Source of the DNA: a virus
Length of the DNA: 64,000 bases
Virus record (IMG/VR): IMGVR_UViG_3300006155_000004
Strand: one strand, 5' to 3'
The notes under the pieces: generated by a model
Told to the model about the DNA's origin: nothing
The model's input: only the letters and a program-made list of their open reading frames with translations
Database searches by the model: none
Made by a program: the position numbers and the translations under genes
In this document: one piece after another, positions 32,370 to 47,505 of the stretch
Layout of the letters: each line of letters opens with the position of its first letter
How positions within the stretch are numbered: the stretch's first letter is position 1

Positions 32370-32503
32370 TGGTTAAATTTTTGATCAACCAGATCAAGGT
32401 CGGAAACATAAGCTTATTGGACGTGCCACCAATGTGGCGCGCTTCGGTTGAAGCTAAAATGGGTGAGGATTCTGAACGCAGAAAGGGAAACGAATGGGAA
32501 TAA
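32369..32503 (+). CDS. XkdX-like small protein (44 aa)
   Basis: TAATG overlap; MVKFLINQIKVGNISLLDVPPMWRASVEAKM pattern common before lysis genes in Firmicute phages (memory). Confidence 0.45.
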   Translation: MVKFLINQIKVGNISLLDVPPMWRASVEAKMGEDSERRKGNEWE

Positions 32504-33285
32504 AGAGAAAGACAGCGCTTGCGCACAGGAGCAATTACGGAGATTTGCGTCCGTCTTCTGCTATTAAATACATAATCCTGCATTATACAGCAAATGACGG
32601 TGATACAGACGAGGGAAACGGATCCTATTTCAAAGGGGCAAACAGGAACGCTTCTGCCCACTATTTCGTAGATGACGACAGCATAACAAGGTCTGTTCCG
32701 GATAATTACGTTGCGTGGTCCGTAGGTGGAGAAAAGTGGCAGGACTGCGGCAGGACTGGCGGCGGAAAGTTTTATGGGCATGCAACCAATTCAAACAGTA
32801 TCAGCATAGAGATGTGCGACACAGTTCGGGACGGCATGGTCATGGCAACCGAAAAGACGATGGAGAATGCGGCTATGCTGTGCGGGGAATTGATGGAGAA
32901 ATATAACATTGACATAGACCACGTGATCCGACACTTTGACGTGAACGGGAAGCACTGCCCGGCCTATTTTATGGAAAATAAAAAATGGGAGGATTTCAAG
33001 GACAGGGTGCGCGGAAATGAATTTAAAACAGATAGGATCTATGCGACGGTTCGGGAATGCTATCTTAGAAATAGTGTGGGCACTGGCAGGAACAAGGCGA
33101 AATATAAATCGCTTTCCGCTGCCGTAAAAAAGAAATGCAGAAATCAACTAGGGTATGCGGTGTTCAAAAAAGGCAGCACGTTCCGGCTGGCGAAAACAAA
33201 GAAATCCGGAAAAGATATATGGGGGCAAATGAAGTCCGGATATTGGATTCCGATTATTTATAAAGGAAAAGCAAGAGTAAAATAA
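32494..33285 (+). CDS. endolysin: N-acetylmuramoyl-L-alanine amidase (Amidase_2/PGRP type) with SH3-like C-domain
   Basis: IILHYTANDG...ASAHYFVDD...ISIEMC...VIRHFDVNGKHCPAYF catalytic pattern; basic C-terminal wall-binding part. Confidence 0.85.
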   Translation: MGIKRKTALAHRSNYGDLRPSSAIKYIILHYTANDGDTDEGNGSYFKGANRNASAHYFVDDDSITRSVPDNYVAWSVGGEKWQDCGRTGGGKFYGHATNSNSISIEMCDTVRDGMVMATEKTMENAAMLCGELMEKYNIDIDHVIRHFDVNGKHCPAYFMENKKWEDFKDRVRGNEFKTDRIYATVRECYLRNSVGTGRNKAKYKSLSAAVKKKCRNQLGYAVFKKGSTFRLAKTKKSGKDIWGQMKSGYWIPIIYKGKARVK

Positions 33286-33290
33286 AAAGA

Positions 33291-33326
33291 ATCCGCCGTA
33301 TAAAAATATGTTTTTGTGCGGCGGAT
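33291..33326. terminator. hairpin after endolysin (T-run only on minus strand)
   Basis: ATCCGCCG-N20-CGGCGGAT; large loop, weak as + strand terminator. Confidence 0.35.
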
Positions 33327-33792
33327 AATCGTAAAAATGTATCATTCTAACTCTTCTATCTTTTTTAAAATTAATTCTTTTTCTTTTTCGCTTAATCTTT
33401 CGTTGGTTCCATAGATTGACAAAGAAACGGAATAACCACCAAACAGCATAAGCCAAAAACAAAAGAAAGAGCTGCGGGAATCAACAAGAAAATCCCTAAA
33501 TGAAACAAAAAAAGGACAGAAAAAGACGAAAGTCCAGAACGATCACGTTATGAGAAATGAGATTTTTCCGCCACAACTTCTAGCTTATTAGACTTTTCTT
33601 CCGATTCTTTACATCCTTTTCTTTTGGTTCTGCTATTTTATCGTTCATAAATAAATATGCCCCATCCAAATGTATATTGCGATCATACTAAATGGTGTTA
33701 TTAAAATACAGAATTAAATAAAAAAATATTTATTTTGCTTACCAAATACGGAAAAAGTGATAGTAGGCTATATTAAATTGGAGAAACGCAAA

Positions 33793-33954
33793 ATGAAATC
33801 TGTTGTTTTTGAAAAGAAACTAAAAGATCTAAGGGAAAACGCAGGATTAACGCAAAGACAATTGGCTGTTCGAATTGAAGTTTCAAAGTCTACGGTGGCT
33901 TTGTATGAAATACAGGAAAGAGGGCTTTCATCAGATTCTTTGATTGGCCGATGA
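33793..33954 (+). pseudogene. XRE-family HTH gene, apparently truncated/frameshifted
   Basis: LKDLRENAGLTQRQLAVRIEVSKSTVALYEIQERG then early stop; plausible continuation DDGIDIIERLIETMRDKNRKIKGI in +1 frame to 34023. Confidence 0.5.
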
Positions 33955-34082
33955 TGGCATAGATATTATAGAACGTCTTATAGAAACAATGAGAGACAAA
34001 AACAGAAAGATAAAAGGAATTTGAACGACAACAAGAAATTGTCGGTTTTTGTCGTTAATTAATTATTATTTCACAAAAACTA

Positions 34083-34111
34083 TTGCAAAAAACGAATATA
34101 TGTTCTATAAT
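34083..34111 (+). promoter_or_regulatory. consensus-like sigma-A promoter (TTGCAA-17-TATAAT)
   Basis: -35 34083-34088, -10 34106-34111. Confidence 0.65.
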
Positions 34112-34159
34112 ATTATCTGTCTTACATAGTACAAATACAAAATATGTTCGAGGTGTGTC

Positions 34160-34330
34160 ATGGATAAAACGCAAAATAAAGAAAAAGAGGTCGAGTTTTT
34201 TGTTTCTCCAGAAGAATACAAAAGAGAAGCGATTAAAATAATCAAAAAAATAAAAAGTCCCGAAATATTAAAATTGATATACTATTTTTCCAAAAGTGGC
34301 TATAAAGAGGAAAATGCGGGGAGAAGATAG
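34160..34330 (+). CDS. hypothetical small protein (56 aa)
   Basis: ATG behind GAGGTG; TAG 34328-34330. Confidence 0.4.
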   Translation: MDKTQNKEKEVEFFVSPEEYKREAIKIIKKIKSPEILKLIYYFSKSGYKEENAGRR

Positions 34331-34343
34331 CTCCCCGAAATCC

Positions 34344-34721
34344 CTACAATATGAACTTTTCAAAGAAATCACAAATCAATTCTTTTTCGTCGGCCGGGAG
34401 CTTGCTATATTCAACAACTATTTTAGCAAATCTCTTATCTGCCAATGCGATTTTCAGTACATTGTCCATAAATTCTGCATCTGCACCAGAACCATTCTTT
34501 TCATCAGTTAAATCAGACTTTCCTATACGAAAATAATCAGCCAATTTTTGAATTTTTCCAAGGCTCGGAAACGACTTTCCGCTGCACCACATATTTAATG
34601 TAGGCGGATTTTCTCCGATAGCCTCAGCCACTTCTTTTTGTGTCTTCTGATTTAATGATATATATCTGTTTAAATTCTTAGCAAACACTTTCTTTTGTTC
34701 GTCATTTTCTATTTTAAACAC
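34344..34721 (-). CDS. cI-like XRE-family repressor without peptidase domain
   Basis: 125 aa; HTH KNLNRYISLNQKTQKEVAEAIGENPPTLNMWCSGKSFPSLGKIQKLADYF; divergent from cro-like gene; no S24 domain. Confidence 0.8.
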   Translation of the reverse strand: MFKIENDEQKKVFAKNLNRYISLNQKTQKEVAEAIGENPPTLNMWCSGKSFPSLGKIQKLADYFRIGKSDLTDEKNGSGADAEFMDNVLKIALADKRFAKIVVEYSKLPADEKELICDFFEKFIL

Positions 34722-34738: not shown

Positions 34739-34767
34739 ATTATATAGCATAATTCAAAAAAATTCAA
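34739..34767 (-). promoter_or_regulatory. repressor promoter (TTGAAT-17-TATAAT on minus strand)
   Basis: -10 = complement of 34739-34744, -35 = complement of 34762-34767. Confidence 0.6.
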
Positions 34768-34771
34768 TATG

Positions 34772-34792
34772 AAATTCAATATTTTTGAATTT
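34772..34792. promoter_or_regulatory. operator O1, 7-7-7 palindrome AAATTCA-N7-TGAATTT
   Basis: aaattcaatatttttgaattt between the divergent promoters. Confidence 0.7.
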
Positions 34793-34796
34793 TCTA

Positions 34797-34825
34797 TTGA
34801 CAATCAGAAAAAATTCAATTAAAAT
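34797..34825 (+). promoter_or_regulatory. early rightward promoter (TTGACA-17-TAAAAT)
   Basis: -35 34797-34802, -10 34820-34825. Confidence 0.65.
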
Positions 34826-34831
34826 GAATTT
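34811..34831. promoter_or_regulatory. operator O2, AAATTCA-N7-TGAATTT
   Basis: aaattcaattaaaatgaattt overlapping spacer and -10 of rightward promoter. Confidence 0.7.
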
Positions 34832-34856
34832 AGAAATTAGGAAAGGGGTGGTGTAA

Positions 34857-35072
34857 ATGCCGAGAATTTCTTTAAAAGCCGCGAGGGTGAATGCTAACAT
34901 GGAGCAGAGGGAATGGGCAGAAAACATAGGAGTATCAGTGGCTACGGTGATTAATTGGGAGAAGGGAAATACAGAACCAACCTTGTCTCAGTTAAGGAAA
35001 ATAAGTGAGTTGTCCGGGATTCCTATGGACTTTATTTTTGTGCCTGAAAAGTTCAATTTAATTGAATTTTAG
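34857..35072 (+). CDS. Cro-like XRE HTH protein, possible antitoxin for the adjacent MazF
   Basis: 71 aa; MEQREWAENIGVSVATVINWEKGNTEPTLSQLRKISELSGIPMDFIF; first gene of rightward operon; 9 nt before toxin gene. Confidence 0.75.
   Translation: MPRISLKAARVNANMEQREWAENIGVSVATVINWEKGNTEPTLSQLRKISELSGIPMDFIFVPEKFNLIEF
35049..35069. promoter_or_regulatory. operator-like site O3 (AAGTTCA-N7-TGAATTT) inside the 3' end of the cro-like gene
   Basis: aagttcaatttaattgaattt, one mismatch to O1/O2 half-sites; ends 13 nt before mazF ATG. Confidence 0.55.
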
Positions 35073-35081
35073 GGAGGGAAA

Positions 35082-35393
35082 ATGTCTGATATGAAACGTG
35101 GACAAGTTTACTATGCAGAACTAAGACCGGTTATCGGAAGCGAGCAAGGAGGAGTCAGACCGTGTTTGGTTATCCAGAATGACACAGGGAACTTACATTC
35201 CACGACCGTCATGATAGCGGCCATGACAACGAAGAGAAAGGCAAATATACCGACACATGTTGCTGTATCGTCAGAAGATTACTGTCTTGACATCAACACA
35301 ACAATTCTTCTTGAACAGATACGAACGATAGACAAAAGTAGGATATCAAGTTTTGTTAGCAGATTGAACGACTGTACCATGAAAAAAGGTTGA
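35082..35393 (+). CDS. mazF: MazF/PemK-family endoribonuclease toxin
   Basis: KRGQVYYAELRPVIGSEQGGVRPCLVIQNDTGNLHSTTVMIAAMTTKRKANIPTHV...TILLEQIRTIDKSRI matches MazF/EndoA signature. Confidence 0.85.
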   Translation: MSDMKRGQVYYAELRPVIGSEQGGVRPCLVIQNDTGNLHSTTVMIAAMTTKRKANIPTHVAVSSEDYCLDINTTILLEQIRTIDKSRISSFVSRLNDCTMKKG

Positions 35394-35448
35394 CGAAGCG
35401 TTAAATATCGGCCTTGCATTAAATAAGGAAGAAAGAGAAGCGGAAAAC

Positions 35449-36156
35449 TTGGGAGAGATAATTCACGTTGGAAACAGAGACATTTCCGTTAAAGAATACA
35501 ACGGACAAAGAGTGGTGACGTTCAAAGATATTGATGACGTTCACAACAGACCGGACGGAACGGCAAACAAAAGGTTCCTTGACAACAAGAAGCGGTTTGT
35601 AGAGGGGGAAGATTTCTTTAAGATAAGCAATTCCGAAATTCGGAAAAGCCGCATAATTCCTATATCTGACAATGATTACATGGACAAAATACTTGTAACA
35701 GAACAGGGATATCTGATGCTTGTCAAGTCATTTACAGATGATTTGGCGTGGGAAGTCCAGAGGAAACTTGTAAATGATTATTTCGGAGCGAAGAAGCTAT
35801 CTCCGGTCGAAATGATGCGGATTCAGCTTGGAATGATTGATGAACTTGGAGATAGAGTTACTGATCTAGAAAATACATACACAATCGACCACGGGCAACA
35901 GAGGGTTTTGGAAAACACGGTAAACAAAACTGTTATATCGGTTTTGGGCGGAAAAGAATCAAACGCCTACAAAGAAATAGGAAGAAAGGTATTTGCAGAG
36001 CGCAACAGGGATTTGAAGAACTATTTTAAGGTCAATTCCAGAGATGACGTTCCAAAGCTGCATTATGAAGATGCAATCAAGTATGCGGAGGATTGGAAAC
36101 CTTGCATAAACACTGCGATGCTTATTTCGAGCTGCAATGCTCAGATGAATTTATAG
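35449..36156 (+). CDS. ORF6N-domain antirepressor-like protein
   Basis: ISVKEYNGQRVVTFKDIDDVHNRPDGTANKRFLDNKKRFVEGEDFFKI...VTEQGYLMLVKSFTDDLAWEVQRKLV; TTG start. Confidence 0.65.
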   Translation: MGEIIHVGNRDISVKEYNGQRVVTFKDIDDVHNRPDGTANKRFLDNKKRFVEGEDFFKISNSEIRKSRIIPISDNDYMDKILVTEQGYLMLVKSFTDDLAWEVQRKLVNDYFGAKKLSPVEMMRIQLGMIDELGDRVTDLENTYTIDHGQQRVLENTVNKTVISVLGGKESNAYKEIGRKVFAERNRDLKNYFKVNSRDDVPKLHYEDAIKYAEDWKPCINTAMLISSCNAQMNL

Positions 36157-36297: not shown

Positions 36298-36698
36298 TGC
36301 CAAGGCCAAAAAAGTTTGAACATGGCGCAGAAATAAGACGCCTGTGCAGCCGGAATATGCGCGGCAGACAACTGGGCGCTTGTTGGTGAAACAGAGTTTT
36401 GCCTGAAAATCATCCACAAAACACTGAAAAAATAAGAAAGATTGACAGGTATGCAATTCCAAAGAAAGGATGGAAGTGTTGAATTTAGAAACGGTAACCA
36501 CTCAAGACTGCATTGAGAACTACAAATCCAAAGGCAGAAGCGTCATTTTGAACGACGGAAAACTAATTGGATTTCAGCAAGAAGAAATCCCCACACAGAC
36601 CGAAAATCCAAGTGGGGATAAATAGCCAGATAAGGCTATTACTATGCCTAATTATATGCGGTTATTCGGGGAAAGCCAAGCGAAAGGAAGAAAAACAA

Positions 36699-36890
36699 AT
36701 GAGAAAAAATTTAAAAGAAGCCCGCAACAAGGCGGGCATGACGCAGAAACAGGTTGCAGAGTATTTGGAAATTAGTGAAATTGGTTATAGACAAATTGAA
36801 TCTGGAAAACGGATTGGTTCAATCAAAACATGGGACGCACTAGAGGATTTGTTTAATATTCATCAGCGGAAGTTAAGAGAGAACTTTTAA
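36699..36890 (+). CDS. XRE-family HTH protein
   Basis: LKEARNKAGMTQKQVAEYLEISEIGYRQIESGKR. Confidence 0.65.
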   Translation: MRKNLKEARNKAGMTQKQVAEYLEISEIGYRQIESGKRIGSIKTWDALEDLFNIHQRKLRENF

Positions 36891-37089
36891 AATCCTCTAA
36901 ACACATTAAGTCGTCCAAAGAAACATTAAATATCACCGCAAGCTTTAATATTTTTTCTATATTTGGCTCACGCGTTCCTTGTTCGTATTGCCTTATTGTG
37001 ATTGTGGAAACCCCTAGATAATCAGCTATTTCCTTTTGCTTTAAAGGTGATTGCGTGCGTAGTTCGCGTAAACGTTCATTGAATCTCAT
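36853..37089 (-). CDS. XRE-family HTH repressor-like protein
   Basis: NERLRELRTQSPLKQKEIADYLGVSTITIRQYEQGTREPNIEKILKLAVIFNVSLDDL; divergent from 37223 operon. Confidence 0.75.
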   Translation of the reverse strand: MRFNERLRELRTQSPLKQKEIADYLGVSTITIRQYEQGTREPNIEKILKLAVIFNVSLDDLMCLEDFKSSLLTSADEY

Positions 37090-37108
37090 AAGTACCTCCT
37101 AAAAATAC

Positions 37109-37137
37109 TTGACAGATTCAAAATGAATCGCTATAAT
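37109..37137 (+). promoter_or_regulatory. perfect consensus sigma-A promoter TTGACA-17-TATAAT
   Basis: -35 37109-37114, -10 37132-37137; operator palindrome fills the spacer. Confidence 0.75.
37115..37129. promoter_or_regulatory. operator palindrome GATTCAaaaTGAATC (copy 1)
   Basis: Perfect 6-3-6 inverted repeat inside promoter spacer. Confidence 0.7.
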
Positions 37138-37537: not shown

Positions 37538-37840
37538 ATGGAAGATTGCTTGAAAGCCCTTAGAGAAAGGCTGTATGCAGTGATGGGTAAGAACGACTGG
37601 ACGTTGACAAGGCTTTCAAATGAGTGTGGAGTTTCCTATCGCGAGTTACAGCAAATTCTTTACAAACAAAACAAAGATGTTCGGCTGTCAACCCTTGTAA
37701 GAATATCGGACGGTCTTGGAATACCACTAATTTCACTGGTTGACATGGAGGAAATGCGGAAAGAGGAAAATGCAGAGTTTATCAGAAAATTGTATTCAGA
37801 CATGAAAGAATATTTAAGAAAGAGTGGTGTTGAAATTTGA
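37538..37840 (+). CDS. HTH (XRE-like) protein
   Basis: WTLTRLSNECGVSYRELQQILYKQNKDVRLSTLVRISDGLGIPL. Confidence 0.55.
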   Translation: MEDCLKALRERLYAVMGKNDWTLTRLSNECGVSYRELQQILYKQNKDVRLSTLVRISDGLGIPLISLVDMEEMRKEENAEFIRKLYSDMKEYLRKSGVEI

Positions 37841-38484
37841 GTGAATTGGTTGAAATTGTTTCAGAGAGAAACGGGAAACCTGTTACTACAAGCCTAAAAG
37901 TTGCGGAAAAATTTGAGAAAGACCATAGGCATGTGCTTGAAAGCATTAGAAATCTCGTAGCCGAAAAGTCGGCCGCCAAATTCTTTAAGGAAACTACCTA
38001 TAAAAACAGAGGAAAGAAATATCCTATGTTTGAAATGGATAGAGATGGTTTTTCTTTGCTCGTCATGGGGTTTAATGGAAAGAAAGCGTTGCAGTGGAAG
38101 TTGGATTACATACAGGCGTTTAACAGCATGGAAAGTTTTATAAAATCTATACAATCCGCCAAAATGGATTATCCAGCACTTACAAAAGCAATCGAGCAGG
38201 CACATGAAGAGCCAAAGTTTTACCATTTTAGTAATGAAATCAACATGATTAACCGTATTGCACTTGGAGCAGACGCAAAGCACTTTAAGGAAGAAAACGG
38301 AATTGATAAGGAAGAAAATTCTATCAGACCATATTTGACGGCGGAACAAATAAAGGCAATCGAGGAATTACAAAGGATAGATATAGGGCTTTTAGTTGCA
38401 AATATTGAATTTGAGAAGAGAAAGCAAATATTGAGGACGCATTATAGTAAAAACACATCAATTACAGAAATGGCGAGGCAATGA
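37837..38484 (+). CDS. Rha-family phage regulatory protein (paralogue D, different C-domain)
   Basis: VTTSLKVAEKFEKDHRHVLESIRN...MDRDGFSLLVMGFNGKKALQWKLDYIQAFNSME. Confidence 0.8.
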   Translation: MSELVEIVSERNGKPVTTSLKVAEKFEKDHRHVLESIRNLVAEKSAAKFFKETTYKNRGKKYPMFEMDRDGFSLLVMGFNGKKALQWKLDYIQAFNSMESFIKSIQSAKMDYPALTKAIEQAHEEPKFYHFSNEINMINRIALGADAKHFKEENGIDKEENSIRPYLTAEQIKAIEELQRIDIGLLVANIEFEKRKQILRTHYSKNTSITEMARQ

Positions 38485-46023: not shown

Positions 46024-47505
46024 TTATGCCACTGCCTGCACCTGCTGTTTATAGCGGGCATCCAGATGGATGCAGATTCCAATCATGGTTGTCATGAAAG
46101 AATAATGCTCCTTTGTGTGTATGAACATACGGTGCAGTCCGTAATCATTGAGGATGCGGTTGTTGATACGTTCCGTGGCGGTGCGTTGATTATAAATCTT
46201 CTTATAAGCATCTGTGCCGCGGGGGACGTCGGTGTAAAGCCGGATATCCCATTCGGGCCGGGTCTTGACGACTCTCCCATATTTGGAATCGGTGCAGGAG
46301 TTTTTACATTTGGAACAGTGATCTTTCCCATAGGGGCAGCGCCACATGAGGTAACCGCTGGATCTGTCATAACCGTTAGGCTTCATGCGCAGTTTTTCCT
46401 GACATAAGGGTGTTCCATCTTTGTCAATGGTGATGGTATCAGGAATTGTTTTTGGCCGGCCGCATTTGTCGTTCAGGTCGATGAAGGCCCGTATTCCCCT
46501 GTTTTTAAGGATCCGGTAGGTGGGGTAATTGTCCATTGCAGAATCCAGGCACATATTCGAAGTGGAAACAGCCGGCATATGTTTTTCCAGTTCATGGAAA
46601 GCGACAAGGAAATTGACCGAATCATGACGCTTTGCACTGGTAAAACGCAGAAGCAGGGGGAGATCTGTCCTGAGTTCACTGTTATAGCAGGATAATTGGA
46701 ACAAAGTGTAGCCGAAGTAATATTTTTCCAGGTCGCTGTCCCAGCCCCAGGAAGCATCGGGGTCGGGGAAATGCCGCAGGTTTTCCGGTGCGCCAACCCT
46801 GTGGTGCCCGCGTGGGCAGGCATGGGTATGCACGGCGGTGCCGTCTCCGGAAACCGTAAGGTGTTCCCTTGGTATGAGGCCGGATTCCATGGAAGGCAGG
46901 ACAGCCACGTGATAGAAGAAGCGCTGCAGCCGCCCTTCAAAGTTAAAAGGGATATCCTTCCCGCTCATGAGCCGTTTTTCGATAGATTCTGTGATTTTGG
47001 GCTTTGCCTCCTGTGCTTTCTGTTTTTTGCCTTTGGGCTTATCCGGCTTTTTGGTGTTCCAGGAAGCCGGAAGCAGTTTGTCCCGCGCATATAAGTCCGT
47101 TGGCGGTGCAGCCCAGAGCCTGTCCATGAAGTCAAAATAAGAACCGAGGGGCGGCAGGGAATCCGAAGTGCAGCCGATGAGAGCGGCAAGGAGGCGGTCA
47201 TGTTTGAGCCTGTCGACCCAAAGGGTAAGGGATAGCTTGGCCAAACCTTCTGAAAATAGAAGAAAGAAAAGGATAAAAGACCTTAAGATTTGTGGCTGGT
47301 TCTTAGCGGGCCTGCCAGTGTTGGAGTAAAAGGGCAGAAGGAACTCCATGGCCTTATCGGTATCGAAAAGGCGGAGTTTCTGCCATGGTTTCCAAAGCTC
47401 CGTATGGAGCCGGACTCTTTCAGAGGAATCGAAATGGACTTTGGATTCGTTGAGAAAGTACTTGTAATCTTGCATGGACTGCCAGTACTTGATCATAAAG
47501 TGCAC
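46024..47505 (-). CDS. DDE transposase
   Basis: 493 aa; N-terminus NTGRPAKNQPQILRSFILF (DUF772-like); C-terminus YKKIYNQRTATERINNRILNDYGL (Y-R-E signature); GC-richer than surroundings. Confidence 0.8.
   Translation of the reverse strand: MHFMIKYWQSMQDYKYFLNESKVHFDSSERVRLHTELWKPWQKLRLFDTDKAMEFLLPFYSNTGRPAKNQPQILRSFILFFLLFSEGLAKLSLTLWVDRLKHDRLLAALIGCTSDSLPPLGSYFDFMDRLWAAPPTDLYARDKLLPASWNTKKPDKPKGKKQKAQEAKPKITESIEKRLMSGKDIPFNFEGRLQRFFYHVAVLPSMESGLIPREHLTVSGDGTAVHTHACPRGHHRVGAPENLRHFPDPDASWGWDSDLEKYYFGYTLFQLSCYNSELRTDLPLLLRFTSAKRHDSVNFLVAFHELEKHMPAVSTSNMCLDSAMDNYPTYRILKNRGIRAFIDLNDKCGRPKTIPDTITIDKDGTPLCQEKLRMKPNGYDRSSGYLMWRCPYGKDHCSKCKNSCTDSKYGRVVKTRPEWDIRLYTDVPRGTDAYKKIYNQRTATERINNRILNDYGLHRMFIHTKEHYSFMTTMIGICIHLDARYKQQVQAVA

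What the first reader, a model, noticed from the sequence alone, without database searches (positions are those of the whole stretch)
34739..35393. MazF-family toxin as second gene of the cro-side early operon, with an operator-like site just before it
The immunity region has divergent promoters (TTGAAT-17-TATAAT leftward, TTGACA-17-TAAAAT rightward) and two 21-bp 7-7-7 operators (AAATTCA-N7-TGAATTT at 34772 and 34811). The rightward operon starts with a 71-aa Cro-like XRE protein. Nine nt later comes a clear MazF/PemK endoribonuclease. A third operator-like palindrome (AAGTTCA-N7-TGAATTT, 35049-35069) sits inside the last codons of the cro-like gene, 13 nt before the mazF ATG. Canonical MazF partners are AbrB/RHH-type MazE proteins, not XRE HTH proteins. 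There are two possibilities. The Cro-like protein may double as the antitoxin, tying the lysis-lysogeny switch to a toxin-antitoxin pair. Alternatively the toxin may be an unneutralised early weapon for host mRNA shut-off or exclusion, kept silent only by the prophage repressor.
Basis: partly seen in the sequence, partly recalled or inferred. Interest (0 to 1): 0.65.

Follow-up and report, generated by a model that had tools for sequence, protein, structure and literature searches.

The report
Split MazF–antirepressor fusion gene beside phage switch
The "MazF toxin gene" after cro is the front half of a frameshift-split copy of a common, undescribed gut-phage early gene that fuses a MazF RNase domain to an antirepressor-like protein, and it is not a toxin–antitoxin pair with Cro.

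Summary
The ORFs, the divergent promoters and the three 7-N7-7 operators are real. The MazF ORF (35082-35393) is not a complete gene. An extra base in the run ATGAAAAAAGG (35379-35389) stops it before the conserved C-terminal helix. That helix, a charged linker and the next ORF (ORF6N+ORF6C, 35449-36156) continue without a stop in the +1 frame. Repaired, the reading frame matches intact 345-367-aa MazF–ORF6N/Bro-N–ORF6C proteins end to end (81% to P0162). More than 100 such protein clusters exist in gut metagenomes, all keeping the catalytic Arg and Thr.

The exact truncated allele occurs on 16 contigs from at least 6 samples, so it is not a sequencing error. Cro is not a dedicated antitoxin. 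Of 80 viral contigs with Cro homologues, 1 carries MazF. MazF fusions sit behind at least four kinds of upstream gene. O3 and the codons "MSD" belong to the cro module: a 91%-identical switch has them in front of a T5orf172 gene.

Best reading: a CI-silenced early-lytic RNase–antirepressor fusion, here split and probably disabled in its MazF part. The fusion family was absent from the papers and GenBank phages I searched.

The parts
34344..34721 (-). cI-like repressor gene: 125 aa, XRE HTH plus a C-terminal region, no peptidase domain found.
   Evidence: ORF list. Pfam HTH_3 E=2e-9. PHROG 'transcriptional repressor/regulator'. A divergent partner of the Cro homologue is detected on nearly all of 80 related viral contigs.
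34739..34767 (-). Leftward promoter-like site for cI: TTGAAT-17-TATAAT.
   Evidence: Consensus scan, 10 of 12 positions. Consensus match only; function not tested.
34772..34792 (.). Operator O1: AAATTCA-N7-TGAATTT, exact palindromic half-sites.
   Evidence: Pattern search, 0 mismatches. Identical in L007.
34797..34825 (+). Rightward early promoter-like site: TTGACA-17-TAAAAT.
   Evidence: Consensus scan, 11 of 12 positions. O2 overlaps its -10 hexamer.
34811..34831 (.). Operator O2: AAATTCA-N7-TGAATTT, exact.
   Evidence: Pattern search, 0 mismatches. Identical in L007.
34857..35072 (+). Cro-like gene: 71 aa, XRE HTH at residues 6-59.
   Evidence: Pfam HTH_3 E=7e-12. Homologues on 80 IMG/VR contigs, 79 of them without MazF.
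35049..35069 (.). Operator O3 (AAGTTCA-N7-TGAATTT) inside the last codons of cro. It is about 238 bp from O2. I read it as a distal operator of the switch.
   Evidence: One mismatch to the operator pattern. 91% complementary to O2. The same site sits at the end of cro in L007, where a T5orf172 gene follows. TP901-1 CI uses three operators OR, OL and OD (PMC7250872).
35082..35090 (+). Start codon plus two codons (M-S-D) that come from the cro module and another gene's 5' end. They mark a recombination or deletion junction.
   Evidence: Homology between L007 and the window runs through 35093. In L007 'ATGTCTGAT' starts the T5orf172 gene. The mazF-module homology begins at 35089-35091 in all relatives.
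35082..35393 (+). Truncated MazF/PemK-domain ORF: 103 aa, lacking most of the terminal helix.
   Evidence: PF02452 E=7e-28 but profile positions 1-100 of 109 only. 57-58% identity range to B. subtilis MazF structures, with Arg and Thr aligned to catalytic R25 and T48. The exact protein is on 16 contigs.
35379..35393 (+). Frameshift site ATG AAA AAA GGT TGA (A6G2). In-frame relatives read ATG-AAG-AAG-GTT, ATG-CAG-AAA-GTT and similar.
   Evidence: Frame translations. DNA comparison with L001, L004, L007, L012, L022, L023, L126 and L160. The same A6G2 is present in the distant lineage L009-L011.
35383..35448 (+). Remnant of the MazF terminal helix and charged linker (KKVDEALNIGLALNKEEREAEN), now in the +1 frame relative to mazF. 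No start codon precedes it in that frame.
   Evidence: Translation. Aligns to residues 98-119 of intact fusions. AlphaFold places the helix at 93-106 and a disordered linker at 111-120 in the intact P0121.
35425..35451 (+). Purine-rich SD-like tract (AAGGAAGAAAGAGAAG) followed by TTG. This is the internal ribosome-binding site and start for the ORF6N/ORF6C product.
   Evidence: In 12 of 15 loci a TTG, ATG or GTG lies 7-10 nt after an AAGGAG/AGAGAGG/AGGGAGG core. The residue at this position is L in 56, M in 44 and V in 4 of 107 fusion proteins.
35449..36156 (+). ORF6N + ORF6C antirepressor-like ORF (235 aa). It is the 3' part of the split fusion gene.
   Evidence: Pfam ORF6N E=1e-17 and ORF6C E=9e-26. 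PHROG 'anti-repressor'. 32% identity to TP901-1 ORF6 and bIL285 orf6. The repaired 35091-36156 reading frame is 81% identical over 354 aa to the intact P0162.

Best explanation
Window 35082-36156 is one gene that has been split by a single-base insertion.

The normal form (shown). It is a 345-367-aa early phage protein made of:
- an N-terminal MazF/PemK endoribonuclease domain;
- a roughly 10-residue charged, disordered linker;
- an antirepressor-like module: ORF6N or Bro-N followed by ORF6C, or sometimes T5orf172.

The gene sits on the cro side of a TP901-1-like cI/cro switch in temperate phages of Lachnospiraceae.

This window (shown). The A6G2 run at 35382-35389 shifts the frame. The MazF domain stops at 103 aa, without residues V99-L109 of its conserved terminal helix.

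This window (inferred).
- The truncated domain is probably unstable or inactive.
- The ORF6N/ORF6C part is probably still made, from the Shine-Dalgarno-like tract and TTG at 35449 that lie inside the linker.

Regulation (inferred from position and operators). CI bound to O1, O2 and the distal O3 silences the whole rightward operon in the lysogen. The fusion would be made only on induction or infection.

Antitoxin. No dedicated antitoxin is encoded next to the gene (shown). The Cro-like protein is a switch regulator, not the antitoxin (shown by co-occurrence).

Function of the intact fusion (inferred). It most likely acts as an early-lytic mRNA interferase tied to an antirepressor-like, DNA-binding and oligomerising module. 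The internal start probably also gives a MazF-less short form.
For: Split gene:
- The +1 frame after 'TMKK' reads VDEALNIGLALNKEEREAENL and continues without a stop into the ORF6N/ORF6C ORF.

The family is real and intact elsewhere:
- Nearly all of the 120 best-listed protein clusters (90% identity level) carry PF02452 + PF10543 or PF02498 + PF10552. More than 100 are full length, 345-367 aa with 98-100% query cover.
- Intact ORFs were read directly in L022, L023 and L160 and in L183, L185 and L186.
- In the 50%-identity library the architecture persists down to 39% identity (P0247).

The MazF domain is under selection:
- R23 and T46 (BsMazF R25 and T48) are invariant in 107 fusion proteins.
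- dN/dS is 0.06-0.35 among 11 lineages.
- AlphaFold gives the MazF domain pLDDT above 90, with TM 0.86-0.88 to S. aureus and B. subtilis MazF.

The allele is real: the exact 103-aa protein is on 16 contigs from at least 6 samples with the same gene order.

Cro is not the partner:
- 1 of 80 contigs with a Cro homologue has MazF.
- Upstream neighbours of the fusion vary.

O3 and MSD belong to the cro module.

Internal SD and start are conserved.
Against: - No experiment. RNase activity, toxicity, use of the internal start and CI binding to O1-O3 are all inferred.
- The MazF core in the window keeps every invariant residue, and the split allele persists in several samples. A residual function of the 103-aa protein cannot be excluded.
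- UACAU, the site cut by the closest characterised MazFs (from my own knowledge), is not depleted in the phage's genes: 45 observed against 33 expected. This gives no support to a 'host-only weapon', although the real cleavage site is unknown.
- In several relatives (L001, L004, L022, L183) a minus-strand ORF separates the fusion from cro. There its transcription may not be under the switch.
Confidence: 0.8

Rival explanations
1. First reader, option 1. XRE-MazF is a type II toxin-antitoxin pair. The 71-aa Cro-like protein both runs the switch and neutralises MazF. O3 is the pair's own operator.
For: - The genes are adjacent with a 9-nt gap, the usual antitoxin-then-toxin order.
- No MazE-like ORF is nearby.
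- An operator-like palindrome lies just upstream of mazF.
Against: - Cro homologues almost never co-occur with MazF: 1 of 80 contigs.
- MazF fusions follow at least four unrelated kinds of upstream gene.
- The adjacency in this window arose from a junction that reuses another gene's start codon; L007 has cro-O3-T5orf172-mazF.
- Cro has only about 12 residues beyond its HTH.
- Surveys of MazF partners list AbrB, RHH/CopG, XF1863, DUF3018 and winged HTH. Xre is not listed (PMC2701414; PMC3879964).
Confidence: 0.04
2. First reader, option 2, as written. A free-standing, complete MazF is an un-neutralised early weapon for host mRNA shut-off or exclusion, held silent only by the prophage repressor.
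For: - The gene lies in the CI-controlled rightward operon.
- No antitoxin gene was found.
- Catalytic residues are present.
- PHROG 1936 'MazF-like growth inhibitor' is filed under host takeover.
Against: - The ORF is not complete. It lacks the terminal helix, which is at least 90% conserved in 107 relatives.
- The normal form is a fusion, not a free-standing protein.
- UACAU is not avoided in phage genes.
Confidence: 0.1
3. The frameshift is overcome or used. Options are +1 ribosomal frameshifting, transcriptional slippage, or phase-variable length change of the A-run. Any of these would make the fusion conditionally or at low level.
For: - The identical ATGAAAAAAGGTTGA occurs in two distant lineages. 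W-L009 has dS of about 1.4, while closer relatives of W are in frame.
- The helix and linker remain conserved at the amino-acid level in the +1 frame.
- The allele is stable across samples.
Against: - Only 6 A's.
- No SD-like stimulator upstream, and no slow or stop codon in the A site at the slip position. The stop is one codon further on. This is read from the sequence.
- A -1 slip gives a dead end.
- Other lineages are broken at quite different places: L014 by +1 nt before the ATG, L140 in the MazF core, L001 in a G-run, L004 by an in-frame TAG, and L007, L012, P0002 and P0005 in the T5orf172 part. That pattern looks like ordinary mutational loss.
- L009 also carries changes in the conserved IQND motif.
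Confidence: 0.06

Closest known systems
MazF/EndoA-MazE type II toxin-antitoxin system of Bacillus subtilis (PDB 4MDX, 4ME7), with S. aureus MazF
   Same: - The MazF domain is 54-58% identical, with TM 0.86-0.88.
- The catalytic Arg25 and Thr48 equivalents are conserved.
- The RNA-binding motifs SEQGG-R-P and ILLEQIRTIDK are retained.
   Different: - No MazE (RHH/AbrB) gene is adjacent.
- The domain is normally the N-terminus of a three-domain protein.
- It lies in a phage early operon rather than an autoregulated two-gene operon.
- In this window it is truncated before the terminal helix.
TP901-1 / bIL285 lactococcal phage switch: cI, mor, three CI operators, then ORF6 'anti-repressor'
   Same: - Divergent cI and cro(mor) genes.
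- Two operators between them plus a third distal one (PMC7250872).
- An ORF6N+ORF6C gene immediately downstream. The window's 235-aa ORF is 32% identical to TP901-1 ORF6.
   Different: - Here the ORF6-type gene carries a MazF domain in front of its own ribosome-binding site.
- Operator sequences and the Cro type differ.
- CI binding and looping are not tested here.
Xre-Bro and Xre-Ant pairs of prophages, proposed as TA-like by Makarova 2009 and tested in pneumococcal phage MM1 by Chan 2014
   Same: - An Xre regulator lies next to a Bro-N/ORF6C-type protein.
- Such proteins inhibit growth when over-expressed and are not neutralised by the adjacent Xre (PMC4257102).
   Different: [quoted passage not shown] In this family they do, because a MazF domain is fused to them.
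Solitary MazF-mx of Myxococcus xanthus, neutralised by the unlinked regulator MrpC
   Same: A MazF without a co-transcribed antitoxin, tied to a developmental decision and its transcription factor (as summarised in PMC2701414 and PMC4257102).
   Different: - Chromosomal and free-standing there, and the partner was identified experimentally.
- Here it is phage-borne, fused, and no partner is identified.
Host MazF in the arbitrium lysis-lysogeny decision of SPbeta-like phages
   Same: A MazF RNase is part of the phage lysis-lysogeny circuit together with antirepressors (bioRxiv 10.1101/2025.11.27.690993).
   Different: There MazF is the host's. It favours lysogeny and is inhibited by phage AimX. 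Here the MazF domain is phage-encoded, on the lytic side, and fused to the antirepressor-like protein.
PHROG 1936 'MazF-like growth inhibitor' (phage-encoded MazF homologues)
   Same: The window ORF matches it at E=3e-21, and the intact fusion at E=3e-27.
   Different: - The match covers only the MazF part.
- The fusion as a whole hits separate 'anti-repressor' PHROGs.
- No GenBank phage record covers 80% or more of the fusion.

Membership tests
MazF/PemK endoribonuclease (Pfam PF02452) | Significant match to the family profile | tested here: met
   97.4 bits against a cutoff of 23.1, E=7e-28. phmmer to B. subtilis EndoA E=1e-34.
MazF/PemK endoribonuclease (Pfam PF02452) | Complete domain including the C-terminal alpha-helix | tested here: not met
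   Profile positions 1-100 of 109 only. The helix remainder VDEALNIGLAL lies in the +1 frame. Intact relatives match 1-109 of 109. The helix spans 93-106 in the model of P0121.
MazF/PemK endoribonuclease (Pfam PF02452) | Catalytic Arg and Thr (B. subtilis and B. cereus MazF Arg25 and Thr48) | tested here: met
   They align to R and T of GGVRP and AAMT. Both are invariant in 107 fusion proteins. Their role is documented in PMC7354611.
MazF/PemK endoribonuclease (Pfam PF02452) | Sequence-specific RNase activity and growth inhibition | not testable with these tools
   Needs expression and cleavage assays.
Type II toxin-antitoxin pair (XRE antitoxin + MazF toxin) | Conserved co-occurrence of the two genes across genomes | tested here: not met
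   1 of 80 Cro-homologue loci has MazF within 2.5 kb. The MazF clade follows HTH_3, DUF739, HTH_26, an unassigned 55-aa protein, T5orf172 or a minus-strand ORF.
Type II toxin-antitoxin pair (XRE antitoxin + MazF toxin) | Antitoxin with a toxin-binding extension beyond its DNA-binding domain | tested here: inconclusive
   The HTH covers residues 6-59 of 71, leaving about 12 residues. That is short, but the sequence alone does not decide it.
Type II toxin-antitoxin pair (canonical MazE-MazF) | Small AbrB- or RHH-type gene immediately upstream, usually overlapping | tested here: not met
   None in the window or in any clade locus examined.
MazF-ORF6N/Bro-N-ORF6C fusion proteins (unnamed family found here) | The three domains in this order with the conserved NKEERExxx(L/M) linker | tested here: met
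   All parts are present and collinear. The repaired frame is 81% identical over 354 aa to P0162. Linker conservation.
MazF-ORF6N/Bro-N-ORF6C fusion proteins (unnamed family found here) | One uninterrupted reading frame | tested here: not met
   A +1 nt at the A6G2 run, 35382-35389. The window carries a split allele of the family's gene.
TP901-1-type genetic switch | Divergent cI and cro(mor), three CI operators including a distal one, and an ORF6-type gene after cro | tested here: met
   Layout and operator pattern. ORF6 homology. Three operators in TP901-1.
TP901-1-type genetic switch | CI hexamer binding with looping, and a CI:MOR complex | not testable with these tools
   Needs EMSA or footprinting and reporter assays.

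The most novel reading that the evidence does not exclude
The MazF-antirepressor fusion is a new kind of phage lysis-lysogeny effector. It would be an antitoxin-less RNase domain, tethered to an ORF6/Bro-type module. Its activity would be tempered by a MazF-less short isoform made from the conserved internal start, through mixed oligomers formed via ORF6C. It would help commit the cell to lytic growth, for example by cutting repressor or host mRNAs. The recurrent splitting at the A-run would be a selectable or phase-variable off-switch in lysogens.
Probability: 0.2. Interest if true: 0.75.

Novelty: new variant of a known kind. Interest (0 to 1): 0.5.

Why it matters
MazF is the textbook toxin of a two-gene toxin-antitoxin module. 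Phage 'antirepressor-like' ORF6/Bro proteins are common and growth-inhibitory, but their mechanism is obscure.

This work found a large family (more than 100 clusters at 90% identity, with architecture kept down to 39% identity) in which the two are one polypeptide. It has invariant catalytic residues, no adjacent antitoxin, and a position next to the cI/cro switch of gut Lachnospiraceae phages.

- It gives the ORF6/Bro class a concrete biochemical activity to test.
- It offers a phage-encoded counterpart to the recently reported role of host MazF in arbitrium phages.
- It shows one way a MazF can exist without MazE.

For annotation, such loci should not be called 'XRE-MazF TA systems'. Split alleles like the one in this window should be flagged as disrupted fusion genes.

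Tried and rejected
1. Sequencing error as the cause of the frameshift. Rejected: the exact 103-aa protein is on 16 contigs from at least 6 samples, and the IMG/VR contig L015 is 99.9% identical with no gaps.
2. Programmed frameshifting. There is no stimulatory signal, the A-run has only six A's, and a -1 slip gives a dead end (sequence). Kept only as a low-probability rival.
3. Shared descent of the A6G2 allele in W and L009. Rejected: dS is about 1.4, while in-frame relatives (L007, L126, L012) are much closer to W. Recurrent slippage is more likely.
4. Fusion ORFs as decaying accidents. My first impression was that most copies are broken. This was overturned, which showed more than 100 intact full-length clusters, and by dN/dS.
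5. The 59-aa Cys-rich minus-strand ORF upstream of some fusions as the antitoxin. It is absent from the window, L007, L009, L012, L014 and L185, and has no Pfam or PHROG hit. It is not a constant partner.
6. The fused C-terminal domains as an intramolecular antitoxin. The AlphaFold monomer shows no confident inter-domain packing (pTM 0.35, linker pLDDT below 50). Neither supported nor excluded.
7. Avoidance of the UACAU cleavage site in phage genes. Not seen: 45 observed against 33.1 expected under synonymous-codon shuffling.
8. Known defence systems. No PADLOC hit for the fusion or its parts.
9. GenBank phages. No DNA match to the region, and no record with 80% or more of the fusion.
10. Literature. 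No paper holds both 'ORF6N' and 'PemK'. The MazF + Bro-N/ORF6C search returned only TA surveys.
11. The 'two-stretch' hits in the 50% library as other MazF-antirepressor arrangements. They are tandem MazF-MazF proteins.
12. The 77-aa ORF upstream of the stand-alone relative P0013 as a MazE. No Pfam hit. Left open.
Full report
**1. What is in the sequence**

The region holds the following features.

| Feature | Coordinates | Evidence |
|---|---|---|
| cI-like XRE gene | 34344-34721 (-) | |
| Cro-like XRE gene, 71 aa | 34857-35072 (+) | |
| PemK/MazF ORF, PF02452 E=7e-28 | 35082-35393 (+) | |
| ORF6N+ORF6C 'antirepressor-like' ORF | 35449-36156 (+) | |
| Leftward promoter-like site TTGAAT-17-TATAAT | 34767-34739 | |
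| Rightward promoter-like site TTGACA-17-TAAAAT | 34797-34825 | |
| AAATTCA-N7-TGAATTT, exact | 34772 and 34811 | |
| Same pattern, one mismatch | 35049 | |

- The MazF ORF starts 9 nt after the cro stop.
- At up to 2 mismatches the whole window has 5 operator-pattern matches against 1.8 expected.
- The three best matches lie within 300 bp.

**2. The MazF ORF is cut short**

- It ends '...NDCTMKKG*' and covers only positions 1-100 of the 109-position Pfam profile.
- In the +1 frame the sequence goes on '...KKVDEALNIGLALNKEEREAENLGEIIHVGNRD...'.
- That stretch is the canonical MazF terminal helix. B. subtilis EndoA reads 'DKVDEALQISLAL' at this point.
- A charged linker follows, and the frame runs without any stop codon into the ORF6N/ORF6C ORF.
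- The cause is one extra base in ATG-AAA-AAA-GGT-TGA (35379-35393).
- In-frame relatives read ATG-AAG-AAG-GTT (L012), ATG-CAG-AAA-GTT (L001, L007, L022) or ATG-AGG-AAA-GTT (L160).

**3. The normal state is a fusion gene**

- Searching with an intact relative (L160 = P0121, 355 aa) returned a best-120 list that consists almost entirely of proteins carrying PF02452 + PF10543 (ORF6N) or PF02498 (Bro-N) + PF10552 (ORF6C).
- More than 100 of these clusters (90% identity level) are full length: 345-367 aa, 58-100% identical, 98-100% query cover.
- I read intact ORFs directly in DNA of L022 (MazF-T5orf172, 308 aa), L023 (MazF-Bro-N-ORF6C, 346 aa) and L160.
- Further intact ORFs are in L183, L185 and L186.
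- In a library clustered at 50% identity the same architecture persists down to 39% identity (P0247).
- The window's reading frame with one base removed aligns end to end with the intact P0162: 285 of 354 identical.
- Hosts are Lachnospiraceae, judged from the two closest GTDB genomes.

**4. The MazF domain looks functional in the family**

- In an alignment of 107 fusion proteins the invariant MazF positions include R23 and T46.
- These align with Arg25 and Thr48 of B. subtilis and B. cereus MazF.
- Those residues are the experimentally defined catalytic pair (PMC7354611).
- dN/dS of the MazF core among 11 lineages is 0.06-0.35.
- An AlphaFold model of P0121 gives these regions:
  - MazF domain, residues 1-108, pLDDT above 90.
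  - Terminal helix, residues 93-106.
  - Disordered linker, residues 111-120, pLDDT below 50.
  - ORF6N domain, then a helical ORF6C domain.
  - No confident packing between domains (pTM 0.35).
- The MazF part superposes on S. aureus and B. subtilis MazF with TM 0.86-0.88.
- The window's frameshift removes the equivalents of V99-L109. Most of these positions are at least 90% conserved.

**5. The split allele is real and recurrent**

- The exact 103-aa protein is encoded on 16 contigs from at least six samples (one Logan run and five JGI metagenomes).
- All of them show the order cI - cro - mazF(103 aa) - ORF6N/ORF6C.
- The IMG/VR contig L015 is 99.9% identical to the window over 4.4 kb, with no gaps.
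- The same A6G2 sequence is found in L009-L011, a distant lineage (dS to the window about 1.4).
- Closer relatives of the window (L007, L126, L012; dS 0.38-0.48) are in frame. The A-run is therefore a slippage hot spot.
- Other lineages are broken elsewhere:

| Lineage | Disruption |
|---|---|
| L014 | +1 nt before the ATG of 'MRRVDEAL' |
| L140 | frameshift inside the MazF core |
| L001 | frameshift in a G-run of ORF6N |
| L004 | in-frame TAG |
| L007, L012, P0002, P0005 | frameshifts in the T5orf172 part |

- I found no signal for programmed recoding. The A-run has six A's, there is no upstream SD-like stimulator, the stop is not adjacent to the slip site, and a -1 slip leads to a dead end.

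**6. The linker carries an internal start**

- The linker is encoded by a purine-rich tract with a Shine-Dalgarno core (AAGGAG, AGAGAGG or AGGGAGG).
- A TTG, ATG or GTG follows 7-10 nt later in 12 of 15 loci.
- In 107 proteins the residue at that position is L in 56, M in 44 and V in 4.
- 9 of the 10 Leu codons seen at DNA level are TTG.
- This is the ribosome-binding site and start of the ORF6-type gene.
- The homology block shared by all relatives runs exactly from the mazF ATG (35091) to this TTG (35449-35451).
- I infer that intact genes give both a long (MazF-Ant) and a short (Ant) product.
- I also infer that in the window the short product is still made.

**7. Cro is not the antitoxin, and O3 is not a mazF operator**

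- Cro homologues (mostly 62-81% identical; the nine most distant are 42%) with their divergent cI partner occur on 80 IMG/VR contigs. Only the window's own lineage has a MazF domain within 2.5 kb.
- The fusion follows unrelated upstream genes:
  - HTH_3 Cro (window).
  - DUF739 Cro (L009-L012).
  - HTH_26 Cro (L185).
  - An unassigned 55-aa protein (L014).
  - A T5orf172 gene (L007).
  - A small minus-strand ORF (L001, L004, L022, L183).
- L007 has a switch 91% identical to the window's, with the same O1, O2 and O3. Its cro is followed by 'ATG TCT GAT TTG...' of a T5orf172 gene, and mazF comes after that.
- The window's 'MSD' start and O3 therefore belong to the cro module. The cro-mazF adjacency is a secondary junction.
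- The layout matches the TP901-1 switch: divergent cI and cro, two central operators plus a distal one, then an ORF6-type gene.
- TP901-1 CI acts at OR, OL and OD (PMC7250872). TP901-1 ORF6 is 32% identical to the window's 235-aa ORF.
- Surveys of MazF partners do not list Xre (PMC2701414; PMC3879964).

**8. Where is the antitoxin?**

- None is encoded next to any copy examined.
- The chromosomal MazF homologues of the same host group (50-62% identical, L024-L101) mostly lie 90-110 nt after alanine racemase or another large gene, with no MazE-sized ORF between.
- Solitary mazF is therefore common in these bacteria.
- The simplest reading is silencing by CI in the lysogen and expression only in lytic growth.
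- Neutralisation by the short isoform, by a host factor, or by the fused domains remains possible and is untested.
- A test for avoidance of UACAU in phage genes was negative: 45 observed against 33 expected.
- That UACAU is the site cut by B. subtilis, S. aureus and C. difficile MazF is from my own knowledge.

**9. Comparison with what is known**

- Phage MazF-like proteins exist as PHROG 1936, 'MazF-like growth inhibitor'.
- ORF6/Bro-type proteins are annotated as antirepressors. In pneumococcal prophage MM1 they inhibit growth and are not neutralised by the neighbouring Xre (PMC4257102).
- Makarova et al. remarked that antirepressors lack typical toxin domains (PMC2701414). This family is the exception.
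- Host MazF takes part in the arbitrium lysis-lysogeny decision (bioRxiv 10.1101/2025.11.27.690993).
- I found no paper that mentions ORF6N together with PemK.
- There is no PADLOC model.
- No GenBank phage covers 80% or more of the fusion.

**10. Verdict**

- The XRE-MazF toxin-antitoxin reading is not supported.
- The 'silent early weapon' reading fits the family but not this truncated copy.
- What is really there is a split allele of a widespread, undescribed MazF-antirepressor fusion gene.
- This is a new variant of known kinds. It is of moderate interest in this window and of higher interest as a family.

Noticed in passing
window 33757-34024: The XRE gene upstream of the immunity region is also broken. 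Homologues of 103-125 aa align with residues 1-53 in one frame (ORF 33757-33954) and residues 78-105 in another frame (33944-34021). About 25 residues of the HTH domain are missing between them, so this is an out-of-frame internal deletion. It is the second disrupted gene within 1.7 kb, and L190-L192 share the same state.
   Followed up: partly
L024-L101 (genome contigs), e.g. L030 1735-3342: In most Lachnospiraceae and other Clostridia genomes sampled, the chromosomal mazF (50-62% identical) lies 90-110 nt downstream of alanine racemase or another large gene. No MazE-sized ORF lies between them. This differs from the alr-mazE-mazF order of Bacillus, which I know from memory. Solitary mazF seems to be the rule in this host group.
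   Followed up: partly
window 36567-37137: There is a second switch-like module. An XRE ORF at 36567-36890(+) overlaps, tail to tail, a convergent XRE ORF at 36853-37089(-). A perfect consensus promoter TTGACA-17-TATAAT lies at 37109-37137(+). An HTH_26 ORF (37538-37840) and a Rha-family regulator (37837-38484) follow. L185 has a similar cluster of three small XRE genes.
   Followed up: no
window 46024-47505 (-): A 493-aa ORF with DDE transposase domains (PF13751, PF01609, weak) lies on the minus strand within an otherwise plus-strand phage-like region. It may be an IS insertion.
   Followed up: no
L001 3762-3941, L004 3094-3273, L183 2756-2935 (minus strand): A conserved 59-aa Cys-rich ORF (CxxC...CP) with a strong RBS is divergently placed immediately upstream of the MazF fusion in several loci. 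The intergenic motif GGAG(A/G)TTATACCACA is repeated before neighbouring small genes. It has no Pfam or PHROG hit and is absent from the window.
   Followed up: partly
L015/L191 (IMGVR_UViG_3300006204_000517), equivalent to window about 35500: In this 99.9%-identical contig the ORF6N part carries a nonsense codon (VKE*NGQRVETF against VKEYNGQRVVTF in the window). In that sample the antirepressor-like half is interrupted as well.
   Followed up: no
window 32494-34721 and relatives L007, L009, L012, L014, L183, L186: The endolysin gene (Amidase_2, 32494-33285) lies directly upstream of the immunity region with no integrase between them. The order lysin - small genes - cI(-) - cro(+) is shared by all related loci. 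This suggests the attachment/integration module is elsewhere, or that these elements are not classically integrated.
   Followed up: no
P0248, P0255, P0257, P0259, P0265, P0267, P0359 (50%-identity library): Proteins with two to four tandem PemK/MazF domains in one chain (235-471 aa) turned up among the hits. They are covalently linked MazF repeats, unrelated to the antirepressor fusion.
   Followed up: partly
L022 after 3924; L007 after 4919: Behind the T5orf172-type fusion partner there is an out-of-frame relic of the ORF6C 3' end ('...EYAKNWKPCTNTAMAISNCNVQMNL*'). This shows that the T5orf172 module replaced most of an ORF6-type gene by recombination.
   Followed up: no
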